Source: Candidatus Sericytochromatia bacterium | Lineage (GTDB): Bacteria > Cyanobacteriota > Sericytochromatia > S15B-MN24 > UBA4093 | Assembly (NCBI GenBank): GCA_040382575.1 | Contig: JBEIFE010000001.1 | Coordinates: forward strand, 1 to 36,565 | Direction: 5' to 3' | Length of the DNA: 36,565 nt | Shown here: piece by piece, positions 881 to 36,266 of the stretch | How positions within the stretch are numbered: the stretch's first letter is position 1 | Layout of the letters: every line of letters begins with the position of its first letter | Notes under the pieces: model-generated | Databases searched by the model: none | Seen by the model: the letters and a program-made list of their open reading frames with translations, nothing else | Told to the model about the DNA's origin: nothing | Made by a program: the position numbers and the translations under genes

Positions 881-2521
881 TCAGCCGATCCGGATCGTGT
901 ACTCCGAACCCGGCATCTTGTGTCCGGACTTCTCGAGAAAGTACCCCAGCCCGCCCGGGAAATCGGTTGTCGTGCCGCGATCGACGAGCACCACGCGGTT
1001 CGCGAGGTCTCGCAGGAAGTGACGGTCGTGACTCACGAACAGGATGGTCCCGTCGAAGGCCTGAAGCGCCTCGAGCAGGATGTCCCGGCTGCGCATGTCG
1101 AGGTGGTTCGTCGGCTCGTCGAGGATCAGGAAGTTCACGGGCTTCGCCAGGATCCGTGCCAGGACCACGCGGGTTCGTTCACCGCCCGACAGCACCCGGA
1201 TGGGCTTATCCACGTCGTCACCGGAGAACCGCAGGGATCCCAGGATGTTCATGACCACGCCGCGACCGGCCGTCGGGATCACCTCTTGCACGCATTCGAA
1301 GACCGTGCGGTTGCCCTCCAGGATCTCGGTGTGGTGCTGGGCGAAGTAGCCGATCTGGAGGCTGGCGCCCAGCTTGAGGTTCCCGGTATCGTTCGCCACC
1401 TCGCTCGCGACGATCTTGAGCAGTGTCGACTTACCGGCGCCGTTGATACCGAGGACCGCGATGCGATCGAGGCGCTTGATCTCGAACGAGACATTACCGA
1501 GGACCTGGCGATCGCCATACGACTTGCCCACGCCCTCGAAGATGGCGATCTGGTCGCCGCTCCGGGTGCACGGGGGCCAGCGGAACTCGACGGCCTTGGC
1601 CTCCCGGGGCACCTCGATGCGGTCCATCTTCTCGATCATCTTCACGCGGGACTGCACCTGAGCCGCGTGCGAGGCGCGGGCCTTGAAGCGTGCGATGAAC
1701 TTCTCTTCCTTCTCGAGCAGGGCCTCCTGGCGCTCCGCGGAAGCCTCGAGGTTCGCCAGACGCAGGGCCGACTCGCGCTCGTAGAAGTCGTAGTTGCCTC
1801 CGTAAGTGCGGACCTCACCCCACTCGATCGCCACGATCTGCTTCACGAGCCGGTTCATGAAGTCCCGGTCGTGACTGGTCATGAAGATCATGCCCTTGAA
1901 CTGGTCCAGGAACTCTTCCAGCCACACGATCGACTCGACGTCGAGGTGGTTGGTCGGCTCGTCCAGGACCAGGGCGTCCGGGCTCGAGAGTAGCACCCGC
2001 GCCAGCTCGATCCGCATGCGCCAGCCACCCGAGAAGGCCTTGACGGGCTTCTGCTGGTCTTCTGGCGAGAACCCGAGACCCCCCAGGACGATCGCGGCGC
2101 GAGACTCCAGTTCGTAGCCTCCGGCGGCTTCGAAGGCTTCCTGGGCTTCCCCGAGTTCTTCGAGCAGGGTCGTCATGGCATCGGCATCGAGCTCAGGATC
2201 GCCCAGACGCTCGGACAGCTCCTGGATGCGGAGTTCGAGCGATCGGACTCCGCCTTGCCCACCCAGGGCCGCTTCCAGAACGGAGAGCTCGACCTCGGAG
2301 GCGGGCTCCTGCGAGAAGTAGCCGATCCGGAAGCGTTCAGGGATGACGACGTTGCCGCCATCCGGCTGGTCTTCGCCCACGATGAGGCGAAAGATCGACG
2401 ACTTCCCTGCCCCGTTGGGACCCACCAGGCCCACGCGATCGCCCGGGTTGATCTGGAACGCGGCGTCCTTGAACAGGATGCGGCTGCCGTGTGAGCGGGT
2501 GACGTTCTGGAACGCGATCAT
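881..2521 (-). CDS. ABC-F family ATPase (duplicated ABC cassette, no membrane domain)
   Basis: 546 aa. Two Walker A motifs (GPNGAGKSS, GINGAGKST), two ABC signatures (FSGGWRMR, LSGGERTR) and two Walker B motifs (LVLDEPTNHLD, LILDEPTNHLD), with an inter-cassette linker. GGAGG lies 7 nt upstream of the ATG. Confidence 0.95.
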   Translation of the reverse strand: MIAFQNVTRSHGSRILFKDAAFQINPGDRVGLVGPNGAGKSSIFRLIVGEDQPDGGNVVIPERFRIGYFSQEPASEVELSVLEAALGGQGGVRSLELRIQELSERLGDPELDADAMTTLLEELGEAQEAFEAAGGYELESRAAIVLGGLGFSPEDQQKPVKAFSGGWRMRIELARVLLSSPDALVLDEPTNHLDVESIVWLEEFLDQFKGMIFMTSHDRDFMNRLVKQIVAIEWGEVRTYGGNYDFYERESALRLANLEASAERQEALLEKEEKFIARFKARASHAAQVQSRVKMIEKMDRIEVPREAKAVEFRWPPCTRSGDQIAIFEGVGKSYGDRQVLGNVSFEIKRLDRIAVLGINGAGKSTLLKIVASEVANDTGNLKLGASLQIGYFAQHHTEILEGNRTVFECVQEVIPTAGRGVVMNILGSLRFSGDDVDKPIRVLSGGERTRVVLARILAKPVNFLILDEPTNHLDMRSRDILLEALQAFDGTILFVSHDRHFLRDLANRVVLVDRGTTTDFPGGLGYFLEKSGHKMPGSEYTIRIG

Positions 2522-2703
2522 GGCGGGTCCTCCTGGGGCTCGAAGTCTTCATCCATGCTTGCACGGACGGGCGTGGAGGGCCAGTAACGACAGGTGTCCT
2601 CGATCCTCGTGATGTCCAGAACTTGTGACCCGGGATTCACGGGGGTAGTTTCGTCATGAGGTCAAACATGCGCGGTCCCGCATCGCCTGAAATGGAGCAC
2701 ATC

Positions 2704-33826: not shown

Positions 33827-35301
33827 AGGCTCGGTACGGGGCGTTCGTGCTGTCTGCCGACCGCCTCGAGTATCGTCGAGGCGATCAAAAGGGAAGCGCG
33901 GAGGGCATCGTCACTCTCGAGCGGGGGTATTATCACCTGCGTTGCAAGGGGCTGACTTTCGATCTGCGGCGCCGCGTCGCGGATGCGACGGAATGGCAGG
34001 CCCTGGTTGAGAAGCAGGTCTGGCTCGGCGGGCTTCGTCTGCACCTCACGCCGGACCTCGTGGTCAGCGAGGATGCTCGGGTCTCACCTTGCCTGCAGGT
34101 CGATCCCGGGTACTGGCTTTCCGGAGAGCGCTTCGAGTGGTCGCCAACCCGGCAGCGGTGGAACTTCCGTGGAGACTGGGTGTCCGTCGTGGTCGGGGGA
34201 GTACCCATCCTCAAACTCCCCTTTCTGGTGGCGACCGTCGGAGAAGGTGCCCGCCAGGGGAACGATCTCCTGAAAACGCGGGATCTCGAGCTTGGTTTCA
34301 ACGGTGTCCAGGGAGTCACGCTGGACGGGAAGCTCGGTTTCCAGCTGGGTGAGCGTCCGTTCCAGCTTCCCATCCGCGTCATGTCGGGGCGCGGCGTGGC
34401 CGTCGGGCTGTCCGAGGCACTCCGGAGTGATCTCGGAGAATGGCGTCTCGACGGGAACTTCACGCAGTACTGGCCCTGGCTCACGCCGGCCACCGGGTCC
34501 GTCGATGCGGGACGTGCCGGCGGGCACGTCAACGCTTCCTGGAACGCTGCCAGCGGCCCCCTTCAGTCCACCGTCAATCTGGGGTACCGGGTGGATCTTG
34601 GCCGCCGGAACGACCTCGAGTATCAGGTCGACCCGAGCGGTTTTCCCGTTCACAAGGTTCCCGAGGTCCAGCTGAACTGGCAGGGGCTCGCGTCCGGTGG
34701 GTGGAGTCTTTCGCCCGCCCTGCGCGCAGGCTATCTGATCGAGGAGATGATCGGGAACGGCGCCGTGCTGGTCCAGGGGGGGCTGGGGCTCGGGATGCCC
34801 GCCTGGCAGGCACCCGGTGGCTGGGTGGTTCAGCCTTACGGCAACGCGTCGTCCACGGCTTACGGTGCCTTGCAACTCCAGGGACGCCCCACCCCCACTT
34901 TGCTCGGAAGCAGCCAGAGCGTCCTCTCGATGGGGGTACAGGGGGCCTGGGCCTGGGAGGATCTGCTCCGGTTCAGGCTCATGCTGGAGTCCCAGCCCGT
35001 ATTCGTGACCGGCGATGCGGGGGTGACGGGAACGCCGTTCGTCCATGACCGGGCATCCAGCATTGACCGCGTTCTGACGGATGTGCGGCTGCATGTCTGG
35101 GGTCCCTGGTCCACCGGGGTCCTGGCCTGGTGGGCCAGACCGAGCGTGTGGACCTCGGCGGATGCCCCCTTCACGCTGGGCGATCTGGCGTTCCGGGTCG
35201 AGTACGGCGTCAATTGCCTGGGACTGGCCCTGACGTTGCGTCCTCCGCGAGGCCTGCAGCCCTTCCAGGCCACGTTTGACTACAACGTGGCCGCTTTCTA
35301 G
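33814..35301 (+). CDS. LptD/OstA-like outer-membrane beta-barrel protein; probable 3' fragment lacking its own signal peptide
   Basis: OstA-like GHVKARYGAFVLSADRLEYRRGDQKGSAEGIVTLERG... region. Beta-barrel-like body. LptD-like end VEYGVNCLGLALTLRPP...FQATFDYNVAAF with a terminal Phe. Confidence 0.65.
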   Translation: MGHVKARYGAFVLSADRLEYRRGDQKGSAEGIVTLERGYYHLRCKGLTFDLRRRVADATEWQALVEKQVWLGGLRLHLTPDLVVSEDARVSPCLQVDPGYWLSGERFEWSPTRQRWNFRGDWVSVVVGGVPILKLPFLVATVGEGARQGNDLLKTRDLELGFNGVQGVTLDGKLGFQLGERPFQLPIRVMSGRGVAVGLSEALRSDLGEWRLDGNFTQYWPWLTPATGSVDAGRAGGHVNASWNAASGPLQSTVNLGYRVDLGRRNDLEYQVDPSGFPVHKVPEVQLNWQGLASGGWSLSPALRAGYLIEEMIGNGAVLVQGGLGLGMPAWQAPGGWVVQPYGNASSTAYGALQLQGRPTPTLLGSSQSVLSMGVQGAWAWEDLLRFRLMLESQPVFVTGDAGVTGTPFVHDRASSIDRVLTDVRLHVWGPWSTGVLAWWARPSVWTSADAPFTLGDLAFRVEYGVNCLGLALTLRPPRGLQPFQATFDYNVAAF

Positions 35302-36266
35302 CGCTTCAGCCGGATGTCTACGAGCGCCCGATAGTCCCCACCGTTGGTGCGATCCTGCACGAAGTTTGCGGACGCGCCGACCCGGAGCTTGATCTCGACC
35401 CGGGCCAGACCCGACCCGTTGATCAGGAAATTCTGGAAGGCCGTGGTCGAAACGGCCACGGGAACGGACGCCAGTACCACGGGCCCCGATTTGATCTTCG
35501 TGCCGGGAAGGAAGGTGACGGGCGTACCGAGGCTTCTCGAGACGATCGGGTCGAAGCCGAGATCGGCCTCGTTGATAGGGGCATCGCGATCGTTGAGGTA
35601 TCTGAGCTGGACGTTGCGAACCGTCAGCGAGGTGGAGGCTCCGGGCGGACGATGCAACGCGAGGAGGACCTCGGATGCCGGCGTGTACACCAGGCCCGTG
35701 GAACTCGTGGCCACCTGGATGGTGGTCAGAGGCTTGATCTGTGCGGAATCGAATACGCCATCGGAATCGAGCGTATCAGCCGAGTCCACCGGGGCATCGA
35801 TCGGCAGCACGAGATCCAGCGAGACGCGATAGGGCGCATTGCGTGACCCGGCTTCCGTGCTGACGGCCTTGGTGGGATCGAAGGCGGGGATGACCGTCTG
35901 GACGGTGGGTGAGTTGATCCCGTCGAAGCTTGCCCTCAGGCTCACCACGCGATCGCTGGGAACCTTGTCGAGGTAGTACTCACCCGGTGCAAGGGAGCCG
36001 CTTGCTCCCGTCTCGAGGAGGACGGTCTGTTCACCACCGGTGTAGACCAGGTTCCCACCATCCGTGACGGATGCCCCGTTCACCGGCTTACCCGCCCGAT
36101 CGACGACCTTACCGATGATGATGCCGGTCGGGTAGGAGATCCGGTAGTCGCGATTCACCGTCCCGAAGAAACTGTAAAACTGGTCACACCCCGCGAGGAT
36201 GGGCGCACACGAGAGCGCGGCCAGGATGCCGAGGCGATATGCCAGGGAATCGTCCGGGCGTCTCAT
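35298..36266 (-). CDS. lipoprotein with carboxypeptidase-regulatory-like domain
   Basis: Lipobox PILAGC. IIIGKVVDRAGKPVNGASVT resembles the CarboxypepD_reg fold. The start overlaps the upstream gene stop (TGATG). Confidence 0.7.
   Translation of the reverse strand: MRRPDDSLAYRLGILAALSCAPILAGCDQFYSFFGTVNRDYRISYPTGIIIGKVVDRAGKPVNGASVTDGGNLVYTGGEQTVLLETGASGSLAPGEYYLDKVPSDRVVSLRASFDGINSPTVQTVIPAFDPTKAVSTEAGSRNAPYRVSLDLVLPIDAPVDSADTLDSDGVFDSAQIKPLTTIQVATSSTGLVYTPASEVLLALHRPPGASTSLTVRNVQLRYLNDRDAPINEADLGFDPIVSRSLGTPVTFLPGTKIKSGPVVLASVPVAVSTTAFQNFLINGSGLARVEIKLRVGASANFVQDRTNGGDYRALVDIRLKR

What the first reader, a model, noticed from the sequence alone, without database searches (positions are those of the whole stretch)
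1508..35956. Strong over-representation of the cyanobacterial HIP1 palindrome GCGATCGC
By hand I count 23 exact GCGATCGC copies, starting at 1508, 2435, 3148, 3340, 4643, 5620, 5749, 8879, 9083, 9933, 10665, 11802, 12885, 17708, 18092, 21493, 24021, 24188, 26326, 28909, 29718, 32500 and 35949. Many are extended to GGCGATCGCC.

- A rough base-composition expectation for this octamer in 36.6 kb at about 66% GC is 1-2.
- While scanning I noted roughly 29 one-mismatch variants sharing the CGATCG or GCGATC core. That is comparable to the single exact word, which argues for word-specific enrichment.
- Sixteen copies lie in frame as Ala-Ile-Ala (GCG-ATC-GCx), five as x-Asp-Arg, one as Arg-Ser, and one is intergenic (in the 9074-9102 hairpin loop).
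- A crude codon-aware estimate for AIA-frame copies is only about 2.
- There are copy-free stretches at 12893-17707 (rpsA to lipoprotein) and 32508-35948.

Established knowledge: HIP1 is a hallmark of many cyanobacterial genomes and is preferentially read as Ala-Ile-Ala there.

Inference: together with the plant/cyanobacterial-type FabI, this suggests a cyanobacterial-lineage (possibly non-photosynthetic or early-branching, high-GC) origin.
Basis: partly seen in the sequence, partly recalled or inferred. Interest (0 to 1): 0.6.

Follow-up and report, generated by a model that had tools for sequence, protein, structure and literature searches.

The report
HIP1 palindrome in non-photosynthetic Sericytochromatia
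The DNA palindrome GCGATCGC (HIP1), a hallmark of photosynthetic cyanobacteria whose function is still unknown, is actively kept at about one copy per 1.7 kb in this genome from their non-photosynthetic relatives (Sericytochromatia), so HIP1 is not tied to photosynthetic cyanobacteria and can be studied by comparing HIP1-rich and HIP1-free sister lineages.

Summary
In detail: there are 23 exact GCGATCGC copies at the stated coordinates, against 3.3 in shuffles. Genome-wide, HIP1 is the commonest 8-mer (1592 copies, 0.60/kb, O/E 16).

- **Not a codon effect:** the excess survives codon-aware shuffles (O/E 3.6 and 8.6; 8.7 and 29 for GGCGATCGCC). It also holds in true intergenic gaps (O/E 12-15).
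- **It overrides codon choice:** the first Ala in Ala-Ile-Ala is GCG 88% of the time, against 30% overall.
- **Sites are conserved:** across species at 79% DNA identity, 16 of 22 sites stay exact, against 20% of control 8-mers.
- **Not a GC effect:** a same-order genome of equal GC has O/E 1.1.

The organism is a Sericytochromatia MAG. None of the 47 genomes sampled from its class has a PsbA/PsbD hit. HIP1 richness marks most of one order (22 of 27 genomes). It is absent from the other Sericytochromatia families and from a large non-photosynthetic sister group.

A C5 (CGATCG-type) methylase, RadC and ComEC do not track the trait. The Dam/DmtA-type GATC methylase is phylum-wide.

I found no paper reporting HIP1 in this class, and published work places its origin inside the phototrophs. 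This is a new member of a known kind. Mechanism and origin remain open.

The parts
1508..1515 (.). HIP1 site, GGCGATCGCC form, read as G-D-R on the minus-strand gene 884-2548
   Evidence: Exact match. Frame. Exact HIP1 at the aligned position in G001 and G002.
2435..2442 (.). HIP1 site, x-D-R frame, minus-strand gene 884-2548
   Evidence: Conserved in G001 and G002.
3148..3155 (.). HIP1 site, GGCGATCGCC form, A-I-A frame, plus-strand gene 2629-3669
   Evidence: Conserved in G001 and G002.
3340..3347 (.). HIP1 site, A-I-A frame, specific to this species
   Evidence: G001 has GCGGTGGT at the aligned position.
4643..4650 (.). HIP1 site, A-I-A frame, minus-strand gene 4435-5007
   Evidence: Conserved in G001 and G002.
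5620..5627 (.). HIP1 site, A-I-A frame on the minus strand
   Evidence: Conserved in G001 and G002.
5749..5756 (.). HIP1 site, frame uncertain, specific to this species
   Evidence: G001 and G002 have GCGGTCAG.
8879..8886 (.). HIP1 site, GGCGATCGCC form, A-I-A frame, plus-strand gene 7397-9064
   Evidence: Conserved in G001 and G002.
9083..9090 (.). Intergenic HIP1 site (GGCGATCGCC) at the tip of a GC-rich inverted repeat between convergent genes
   Evidence: The fold is no better than shuffles, z = -0.24. Falls in an alignment gap in G001 and G002.
9933..9940 (.). HIP1 site, A-I-A frame, minus-strand gene 9122-10021
   Evidence: Conserved in G001 and G002.
10665..10672 (.). HIP1 site, frame uncertain, specific to this species
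   Evidence: G001 and G002 have GCGATGGT.
11802..11809 (.). HIP1 site (GGCGATCGCC), the most deeply conserved copy in the window
   Evidence: Conserved in G001 and G002 and also in another genus, G004. Frame assignment is ambiguous.
12885..12892 (.). HIP1 site (GGCGATCGCC), A-I-A frame, plus-strand gene 11556-12992
   Evidence: Conserved in G001 and G002. G004 has the one-mismatch form GCCATCGC.
17708..17715 (.). HIP1 site (GGCGATCGCC), A-I-A frame, minus-strand gene 17359-18648
   Evidence: Conserved in G001; not aligned in G002.
18092..18099 (.). HIP1 site (GGCGATCGCC), A-I-A frame
   Evidence: Conserved in G001 and G002.
21493..21500 (.). HIP1 site in the rare R-S frame (T-R-S-P), plus-strand ORF 20990-21967
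   Evidence: Falls in an alignment gap in G001 and G002.
24021..24028 (.). HIP1 site (GGCGATCGCC), A-I-A frame, plus-strand gene 22434-24047
   Evidence: Conserved in G001 and G002. Not conserved in G004 or G005.
24188..24195 (.). HIP1 site, A-I-A frame
   Evidence: Conserved in G001 and G002.
26326..26333 (.). HIP1 site (GGCGATCGCC), frame uncertain
   Evidence: Conserved in G001 and G002.
28909..28916 (.). HIP1 site, A-I-A frame, minus-strand gene 28017-29555, specific to this species
   Evidence: G001 has GCAACCGC.
29718..29725 (.). HIP1 site (GGCGATCGCC), frame uncertain
   Evidence: Conserved in G001.
32500..32507 (.). HIP1 site (GGCGATCGCC), A-I-A frame, plus-strand gene 31516-32613
   Evidence: Conserved in G001.
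35949..35956 (.). HIP1 site, x-D-R frame, minus-strand gene 35301-36350
   Evidence: Lies outside the fetched syntenic stretch.

Best explanation
What it is (shown): a genuine HIP1-type highly iterated palindrome, (G)GCGATCGC(C). It lies in a non-photosynthetic cyanobacterial relative, a Sericytochromatia MAG of 65% GC.

Shown here:
- The exact word is kept at the DNA level, in all three reading frames and between genes.
- It is kept against the genome's own codon preference, strongly enough to triple the frequency of the Ala-Ile-Ala tripeptide.
- Individual sites persist across species far better than other 8-mers. Between genera the sites turn over, while density stays at 0.4-0.9 per kb.
- The trait belongs to most of one order of Sericytochromatia. 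Other families of the class and a large non-photosynthetic sister group lack it.

How it most likely works (inferred):
- The GATC core is N6-adenine methylated by the phylum-wide Dam/DmtA-type enzyme.
- A still-unidentified factor recognises the full word.
- Copies are kept because they favour the uptake or homologous recombination of the organism's own kind of DNA. That would make HIP1 a Chi-like or uptake-sequence-like role, as proposed for HIP1 in Synechococcus PCC 7002.

I put about 0.9 on the 'real, selected HIP1 system' part and about 0.35 on the recombination/uptake mechanism. On origin, I lean slightly towards a separate gain at the base of this order rather than inheritance from the ancestor shared with the phototrophs, but the evidence does not decide it.
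For: Enrichment:
- 23 copies in the window against 3.3 in shuffles.
- 1592 copies genome-wide, the top 8-mer, O/E 16.4. GGCGATCGCC occurs 895 times, and only the +/-1 flank positions are biased.
- In coding DNA, 1278 observed against 353+/-15 when synonymous codons are shuffled within genes, and against 149+/-12 when codon order is shuffled (z = 63 and 91).
- Comparator palindromes sit at 0.4-2.2.
- True intergenic gaps have O/E 11.7, and convergent 3'-3' gaps 14.9.

Effect on coding:
- The first Ala of A-I-A is GCG 88% of the time against 30% overall.
- Asp in [xGC]-D-R is GAT 79% of the time against 40% overall.
- The A-I-A tripeptide occurs 981 times against 333 expected.

Conservation:
- 16 of 22 sites are conserved in G001 at 78.6% nucleotide identity, against 0.19-0.20 for other 8-mers (binomial p = 1.4e-7).
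- A codon alignment gives 13 of 15 against 0.21 (p = 1.2e-7).
- GCG codons inside HIP1 are conserved 11 of 11, against 103 of 251 outside (p = 8e-5).

Not a GC effect: G012 is in the same order at 66.5% GC and has O/E 1.1.

Lineage:
- The nearest relatives are Sericytochromatia.
- No Photo_RC in any genome of the class.
- 22 of 27 genomes of the order are HIP1-rich at 0.18-0.92 per kb.
- Sampled sequence from families f6 and f7 gives O/E about 1 or 0. The non-photosynthetic group f9/f27 has 0-6 copies per genome.

Background genes:
- The Dam/DmtA-type orthologue is present in both congeners and in 210 of 301 phylum genomes.
- ComEC is present in 40 of 41 relatives, this genome included.
- Methylated HIP1 raises transformation and recombination in PCC 7002 (bioRxiv 10.1101/2024.09.10.611283).
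Against: - No reader protein is identified.
- None of the tested families tracks HIP1-rich against HIP1-poor genomes in this class: C5 methylase 8/22 against 4/19, Dam 18/22 against 18/19, RadC 14/22 against 13/19, ComEC 21/22 against 19/19.
- ComEC is universal, so it cannot discriminate between hypotheses.
- The m5C CGATCG methylase that made HIP1 effective in PCC 7002 is absent from this genus, including a 99%-complete genome. If methylation of the CGATCG core matters here, another enzyme must do it.
- The beta-class methylases present carry DPAY or HPPY motifs, which look adenine-type or atypical.
- The Dam orthologue was not found in this 84%-complete MAG itself.
- Site conservation rests on about 36 kb and effectively one independent species comparison, because G001 and G002 are 94% identical to each other.
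- At inter-genus distance only 1 of 5 aligned sites is conserved, which is not significant.
- Methylation state, competence and chromosomal periodicity could not be tested.
Confidence: 0.8

Rival explanations
1. By-product of composition. On this view high GC, codon usage or a frequent Ala-Ile-Ala peptide produce the word passively.
For: Two thirds of coding copies are in the GCG-ATC-GCx frame. ATC and GCC are preferred codons. A maximal-order Markov model predicts 1287 of the 1592 copies, but that model is circular because its 7-mers contain the word.
Against: - Codon-aware shuffles leave a 3.6- to 8.6-fold excess.
- GCG is not the preferred Ala codon, at 30% overall, yet it is used 88% of the time in this context.
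- The word is enriched 12- to 15-fold in intergenic gaps.
- A same-order genome of equal GC has O/E 1.1.
Confidence: 0.02
2. Binning artefact. On this view HIP1-rich contigs from an oxygenic cyanobacterium were mixed into a non-cyanobacterial MAG.
For: The assembly is fragmented (617 contigs) with 5.35% estimated contamination.
Against: - Density is even across contigs: 159 of 161 contigs of at least 5 kb carry copies, and the 5th percentile is 0.19 per kb.
- The window's genes are collinear with two other MAGs of the genus that have the same density.
- All 10 genomes of the family and 22 of 27 of the order show the trait.
- There are no PsbA/PsbD hits in the class.
Confidence: 0.02
3. Neutral replenishment by biased repair (Elhai 2015). 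On this view a methylation-directed mismatch-repair process keeps converting near-HIP1 sequences into HIP1, and the word itself has no function.
For: - One-mismatch variants are commonest at the outer positions 1 and 8 (1516 copies). The other position pairs have 872, 517 and 910. This is the pattern Elhai reported (PMC4390886).
- Sites turn over between genera while density is held, so creation of new sites must continue.
Against: - The postulated G-m5C mark has no enzyme here: there is no PF00145 hit in the genus, and 14 of 22 HIP1-rich genomes lack one.
- Orthologous sites are retained about 3.5 times better than controls. Xu et al. 2018 take such retention as evidence for selection rather than replenishment (PMC5861425).
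- HIP1-rich cyanobacteria without a CGATCG methylase are already known.
Confidence: 0.15
4. Dispersed mobile repeat. On this view the copies are cores of a REP- or MITE-like element that spread by transposition.
For: The copy number is high and the word is palindromic. One copy sits at the tip of an intergenic inverted repeat at 9074-9102.
Against: - Flanking positions beyond +/-1 show only background composition.
- About 80% of copies lie inside unique coding sequence and in frame.
- Spacing is close to exponential, without clusters.
- The hairpin at 9083 folds no better than shuffles.
Confidence: 0.01

Closest known systems
HIP1 (GCGATCGC) of oxygenic cyanobacteria (Elhai 2015 PMC4390886; Xu, Lawrence and Durand 2018 PMC5861425; Rodriguez-Cruz et al. 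2026 PMC13756078)
   Same: - The same octamer, and the same GGCGATCGCC extension.
- Density within the phototroph range (0.60 per kb here; roughly 0.1-3.6 per kb among HIP1-bearing phototroph genomes).
- Present in all frames and in non-coding DNA.
- Overrides codon preference.
- Sites are conserved between related genomes.
- Outer-position bias among one-mismatch variants.
- Coexists with a Dam/DmtA-type GATC methylase.
   Different: - The host is non-photosynthetic and lies outside the class in which HIP1 has been described.
- Published surveys used only oxygenic strains. They place the rise of HIP1 after Gloeobacterales and Thermostichales.
- There is no m5C CGATCG methylase here. That situation was previously known only for a few strains such as S. 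elongatus.
- RadC, one of the tightest HIP1 correlates in phototrophs, is absent from this HIP1-rich genus.
- O/E is modest (16) because the genome is GC-rich.
Alternate HIPs, for example GGGATCCC in the hot-spring Thermostichales strains and CAGGCCTG in Synechococcus PCC 6312
   Same: Lineage-specific, hyper-abundant GC-rich palindromes whose presence shifts between related clades.
   Different: Here the canonical word itself is used. The sampled HIP1-poor relatives (G012, G028, G030) show no replacement palindrome. Their top word CCTCGAGG is also abundant in the window's HIP1-rich genome (624 copies), where codon usage largely explains it.
DNA uptake sequences (DUS of Neisseria, USS of Pasteurellaceae; PMC1939737)
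   Same: A short exact word at about 0.5-1 per kb in genes and between them, kept by a process linked to DNA exchange. The ComEC channel gene is present.
   Different: DUS and USS are not palindromes, and their uptake bias has been shown experimentally. Here nothing is known about uptake, and no receptor candidate was found.
Chi sites (RecBCD/AddAB crossover hotspot instigators)
   Same: An over-represented 8-mer proposed to stimulate homologous recombination. A Chi-like role was suggested for HIP1 in PCC 7002.
   Different: Chi is asymmetric and its orientation is biased with replication. HIP1 is a palindrome, and I saw no strand-skew pattern around it beyond its own G/C flanks.

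Membership tests
HIP1-type highly iterated palindrome | GCGATCGC is grossly over-represented and is the top or near-top 8-mer of the genome | tested here: met
   1592 copies, rank 1 of all 8-mers, O/E 16.4. 23 copies in the window against 3.3 in shuffles.
HIP1-type highly iterated palindrome | The excess is not explained by codon usage or amino-acid composition | tested here: met
   O/E is 3.6 in the synonymous shuffle and 8.6 in the codon-order shuffle. For the 10-mer the values are 8.7 and 29. Comparator palindromes sit at 0.4-2.2. Context-specific codon switches are seen.
HIP1-type highly iterated palindrome | Enriched in all three reading frames and in non-coding DNA | tested here: met
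   Frame counts are 838, 375 and 65. Intergenic gaps have O/E 11.7, and convergent gaps 14.9.
HIP1-type highly iterated palindrome | Sites are conserved between related genomes beyond control motifs (Xu 2018) | tested here: met
   16 of 22 against 0.20, and 13 of 15 against 0.21 in a codon alignment. GCG codons are conserved 11 of 11 inside HIP1 against 41% outside. This rests on one 36-kb region and one effective species pair. The inter-genus test (1 of 5) is inconclusive.
HIP1-type highly iterated palindrome | One-mismatch variants are biased to the first and last positions, keeping the CGATCG core (Elhai 2015) | tested here: met
   Raw variant counts are 1516 for positions 1/8, 872 for 2/7, 517 for 3/6 and 910 for 4/5. 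They are not normalised for expectation.
HIP1-type highly iterated palindrome | Coexistence with a GATC-specific (DmtA/Dam-type) methyltransferase | tested here: inconclusive
   An orthologue with the DPPY motif is present in both congeners and in 39 of 41 relatives. It was not found in this 84%-complete MAG. It also occurs in HIP1-free genomes.
HIP1-type highly iterated palindrome | Coexistence with a CGATCG-specific methyltransferase (DmtC / M.Ssp6803I, m5C, or an m4C equivalent) | tested here: not met
   There is no PF00145 hit in this genome or in the 99-100% complete relatives G001, G004 and G008. The PF01555 enzymes present have DPAY or HPPY motifs rather than the m4C-type SPPY/F. This is not strictly defining: S. 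elongatus and three other HIP1-rich strains also lack it.
HIP1-type highly iterated palindrome | Quasi-periodic distribution along the chromosome (Xu 2018) | not testable with these tools
   The longest contig is 36.6 kb, and the periods reported are far longer. Short-range spacing is close to exponential, CV 0.97.
HIP1-type highly iterated palindrome | The host belongs to the cyanobacterial lineage | tested here: met
   The nearest relatives are Sericytochromatia MAGs. It shares a phylum sample with PsbA-bearing genomes but has no Photo_RC itself. The host is outside the oxygenic class.
DNA uptake sequence (DUS/USS) | Competence machinery plus demonstrated preferential uptake of DNA carrying the word | not testable with these tools
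   Only ComEC presence was shown. The organism is uncultured, so no uptake assay is possible.
REP/MITE-type dispersed repeat | Copies share extended flanking sequence or terminal inverted repeats | tested here: not met
   There is no conservation beyond +/-1 around 1584 copies.

The most novel reading that the evidence does not exclude
HIP1, meaning the word together with whatever reads it, was already present in the common ancestor of Sericytochromatia and oxygenic cyanobacteria. On this reading it predates oxygenic photosynthesis and was lost repeatedly: in other Sericytochromatia orders, in the Vampirovibrionia-like group and in Gloeobacterales. In Thermostichales it was switched to GGGATCCC. 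The data do not exclude this. Seven losses are already documented within the phototrophs, and the GATC methylase is phylum-wide. Sites turn over too fast for orthologous positions to decide the question.
Probability: 0.3. Interest if true: 0.75.

Novelty: new member of a known kind. Interest (0 to 1): 0.6.

Why it matters
HIP1 has been unexplained for three decades, and every survey I could read covers only oxygenic cyanobacteria.

- **It breaks two links.** Finding the same word, with the same signs of selection, in a non-photosynthetic class removes any necessary link to photosynthetic lifestyle. It also challenges the published single origin after Gloeobacterales and Thermostichales.
- **It provides a second, independent clade for testing candidates.** In that clade RadC, an m5C CGATCG methylase, Dam and ComEC all fail to track the trait.
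- **It offers a clean natural contrast.** One genus of the same order with the same 66% GC has no excess at all, while its sister genera have 0.2-0.9 copies per kb. Comparing gene content across that contrast is a direct way to look for the unknown HIP1 reader or driver.

Tried and rejected
- **16S rRNA** in the MAG for placement: none found.
- **C5 methylase (PF00145):** absent from the genus and unrelated to HIP1 status.
- **Beta-class methylases (PF01555):** checked as possible m4C CGATCG enzymes. The conserved 251-aa protein (G000:C53) has a DPAY motif and CcrM/DpnA-type matches, so it is probably an adenine methylase. The ~580-nt hit class it belongs to is not seen in family f3 in the table, although orthology was not tested.
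- **RadC and ComEC** as HIP1 correlates: no association.
There is only a weak asymmetry of about 0.01 plus the G/C flanks.
- **CCTCGAGG as a second HIP:** rejected. Its codon-aware O/E is 1.5-2.2, and it is equally high in HIP1-free G012.
- **The 9074-9102 hairpin** as a special structure: z = -0.24.
- **The copy-free stretches:** consistent with random spacing.
- **Inter-genus site conservation:** nucleotide alignment was too sparse, and codon alignment gave only 5 aligned sites, so this is inconclusive.
- **Naming the anonymous families:** the tool hides names.

Full report
**Observation.** One hundred dinucleotide-preserving shuffles give a mean of 3.3 and never more than 8. Twelve copies are GGCGATCGCC. 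There are 47 one-mismatch 8-mers, 31 of which keep a CGATCG, GCGATC or GATCGC core.

The assembly holding the window is a MAG of 2.65 Mb in 617 contigs. It has 65.4% GC, is 84% complete and has 5% estimated contamination. In it HIP1 is the single most frequent 8-mer: 1592 copies, or 0.60 per kb, against 97 expected from base composition. The next most frequent 8-mers are its overlaps. GGCGATCGCC occurs 895 times. Outside the word, only the +/-1 positions are biased (75% G and C), so these copies are not parts of a longer repeat. Copies are spread evenly: 159 of 161 contigs of at least 5 kb carry them, and spacing is close to exponential.

**Is it more than codon usage?** I called about 2000 ORFs by GC3 and shuffled them in two ways.

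| Word | Observed in CDS | Synonymous shuffle (proteins fixed) | Codon-order shuffle |
|---|---|---|---|
| GCGATCGC | 1278 | 353 +/- 15 (z = 63) | 149 +/- 12 (z = 91) |
| GGCGATCGCC | 718 | 83 | 25 |

Eighteen comparator words, almost all GC-rich palindromes, were run through the same shuffles. Apart from the HIP1 decamer and its CGATCG core they lie at O/E 0.4-2.2, including CCTCGAGG, the second most abundant palindrome.

Codon choice is bent to make the word:
- The first Ala of Ala-Ile-Ala is GCG in 88% of cases, against 30% genome-wide.
- Asp in [xGC]-Asp-Arg is GAT in 79% of cases, against 40% genome-wide.
- The Ala-Ile-Ala tripeptide is 2.9 times commoner than amino-acid frequencies predict.

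All three frames are used (838, 375 and 65 copies). In short gaps bounded by called genes the O/E is 11.7, and in convergent 3'-3' gaps it is 14.9. The signal therefore acts on DNA, not on protein.

**A natural control.** Genome G012 belongs to the same order and has 66.5% GC. It has 8 copies in 200 kb (O/E 1.1), while CCTCGAGG is still high there at O/E 9.8. High GC and the clade's codon habits therefore do not produce HIP1, and the CCTCGAGG excess is a separate background feature.

**Site conservation.** The window is collinear with contigs of two congeneric MAGs at 78.6% nucleotide identity.
- Of 22 aligned HIP1 sites, 16 are exact HIP1 in G001. In G002 the figure is 13 of 19. Only 19-20% of all other 8-mers, or of 8-mers with the same GC, are conserved (binomial p = 1.4e-7).
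- A protein-guided codon alignment gives 13 of 15 against 21% (p = 1.2e-7).
- GCG codons inside HIP1 are conserved 11 of 11, against 41% for GCG codons elsewhere in the same genes (p = 8e-5).

The two congeners are 94% identical to each other, so this is effectively one comparison on 36 kb.

Against other genera of the family (54% amino-acid identity), only 1 of 5 aligned sites is conserved, which is not significant. Yet the syntenic regions there still carry 0.68-0.80 copies per kb. Sites are thus retained over species-level time and replaced over genus-level time, while density is held.

**Who is the host?** The closest GltX relatives are MAGs labelled Candidatus Sericytochromatia, at 92, 91, 74, 70 and 67% identity. 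The last is S15B-MN24 CBMW_12. The next tier is at 45-49%. In a 301-genome sample of the phylum, none of the 47 genomes of the window's class has a Photo_RC (PsbA/PsbD) hit, whereas 122 genomes of the other families do.

**Distribution of the trait**:

| Group | HIP1 copies / density |
|---|---|
| Window's family (10 genomes, 4 genera) | 0.39-0.70 per kb |
| Window's order (27 genomes) | 22 HIP1-rich, 0.18-0.92 per kb |
| Genus g7 (four of the five HIP1-poor genomes in that order) | 104-140 copies; O/E 1.1 in sampled G012 sequence |
| Family f5 | 421 copies in 5.3 Mb |
| Family f6 | 68-221 copies in 2.8-6.5 Mb; sampled at 47.5% GC, O/E 1.3 |
| Family f7 | 0-6 copies; sampled at 25% GC |
| Families f9 and f27 (non-photosynthetic, about 2 Mb genomes; probably Vampirovibrionia, names hidden) | 0-6 copies, no more than the reversed control word |
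| Most photosynthetic families | thousands of copies |

**Literature.** No paper in the searchable library contains both HIP1 and Sericytochromatia, or HIP1 with Melainabacteria or Vampirovibrionia.
- The latest survey covers 389 complete RefSeq cyanobacteria, all oxygenic. It finds HIP1 'entirely absent' in Gloeobacterales and Thermostichales and abundant from Pseudanabaenales onward, with seven later losses (PMC13756078).
- Elhai 2015 links HIP1 to a GATC methylase (DmtA) and a CGATCG methylase (DmtC / M.Ssp6803I). He lists S. elongatus, Pseudanabaena 7367 and Geitlerinema 7407 as HIP1-rich strains without the latter (PMC4390886).
- Xu et al. 2018 showed site conservation and argued for selection (PMC5861425).
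- Kamoku and Nielsen 2024 showed that methylated HIP1 boosts transformation and recombination in PCC 7002.

**Candidate machinery in this clade.**
- *C5 methylase (PF00145).* No hit in this genome or its genus, or in the 99-100% complete relatives G001, G004 and G008. Across 41 relatives it occurs in 8 of 22 HIP1-rich and 4 of 19 HIP1-poor genomes.
- *Dam/DmtA-type enzyme.* It has FLKWAGGK and DPPY motifs and is present in both congeners and 39 of 41 relatives, though not in this incomplete MAG. Its orthologue occurs in 210 of 301 phylum genomes at 42-53% identity, including HIP1-free ones. It is missing from HIP1-rich genus g9. It is shared background, neither sufficient nor strictly necessary.
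- *Beta-class methylases.* They exist, but the conserved 251-aa one has a DPAY motif with CcrM/DpnA-type matches. In the hit table it does not appear in family f3.
- *RadC.* This is one of the tightest correlates in phototrophs. It is absent from this HIP1-rich genus and present in every HIP1-poor f6 and f7 genome.
- *ComEC.* Universal.

None of the four associations is significant (not corrected for phylogeny).

**Interpretation.** What is shown: a real, selected HIP1 word in a non-photosynthetic class, shared by most of one order. What is inferred: the GATC core is probably adenine-methylated by the phylum-wide Dam-type enzyme. An unknown factor reads the full word. Copies are kept because they favour uptake or recombination of conspecific DNA.

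I give that mechanism about 0.35. A neutral biased-repair origin gets about 0.15. It is weakened here by the lack of a cytosine methylase and by site retention, although continued creation of sites is required by the turnover seen between genera. Composition, mis-binning and mobile-repeat explanations are excluded.

Whether the trait is ancestral to the phylum (about 0.3) or arose separately in this order cannot be settled from these data. Losses are evidently common, and sites turn over too fast to compare positions with phototrophs.

**Verdict.** This is a new member of a known kind. It has real value as an independent test clade for a long-standing puzzle, especially the HIP1-free genus of equal GC inside the HIP1-rich order.

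**Limits.** The evidence rests on one fragmented MAG, crude gene calls and anonymous relatives. Gene-trait tests were not corrected for phylogeny.

Noticed in passing
whole genome (G000); also G012 sample loci L103-L112: CCTCGAGG is the second most abundant palindrome (624 copies, O/E 6.4 by base composition), but only 1.5-2.2 after codon-aware shuffling. It is the top 8-mer (O/E 9.8) in the HIP1-free relative G012. It therefore looks like a shared codon or dipeptide (Leu-Glu) background of the order, not a second HIP.
   Followed up: yes
whole genome and sampled relatives: GATC as a whole is 2.7-3.1 times over base-composition expectation in HIP1-rich genomes (G000, G008, G017, G021), but only 1.6 times in HIP1-free G012 at equal GC. 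HIP1 copies account for only a small part of that excess.
   Followed up: partly
G000:C53:1147-1731 (minus strand), outside the window: A 251-aa beta-class DNA methyltransferase with an unusual TDPAY motif IV. Hits of the same size class recur in the family and parts of the order (G001, G004, G008, G010, G015 ...), but orthology was not tested. Its specificity is unknown.
   Followed up: partly
G000:C67:2038-2805 (minus strand), outside the window: A second PF01555-type methyltransferase with an atypical HPPY motif IV. The domain order appears permuted, with the AdoMet-binding part first.
   Followed up: no
loci L007 and L011: Two public MAGs are labelled 'Stenomitos sp.' and 'Oscillatoriaceae cyanobacterium'. 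Their GltX is 72% and 48% identical to the window's and ranks among Sericytochromatia MAGs. Their NCBI names may be misassignments.
   Followed up: no
relatives G016, G018, G022 (genera g9, g11): These HIP1-rich genomes carry 11-18 PF01555 methyltransferase hits each, far more than the rest of the order. G016 and G022 (g9) lack the conserved Dam orthologue altogether, and G018 (g11) has only a weak match to it.
   Followed up: no
window sites 3340, 5749, 10665, 28909 against G001: Where a HIP1 site is not shared with the congener, the aligned 8-mer differs at 2-3 positions rather than one (GCGGTGGT, GCGGTCAG, GCGATGGT, GCAACCGC). The sample is too small to interpret.
   Followed up: no
around all HIP1 copies genome-wide: There is a weak antisymmetric GC skew of about 0.01 within roughly 100 nt of HIP1 sites, G-rich on the 5' side. 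This is beyond the G/C flank positions but far from the sawtooth reported for another phylum.
   Followed up: partly
window 1-36565 against G001:C37 and G002:C344: Gene order is fully collinear across 36 kb between species at about 79% nucleotide identity. One insertion of about 1.9 kb is present in both relatives, near window position 22,050-22,120.
   Followed up: no
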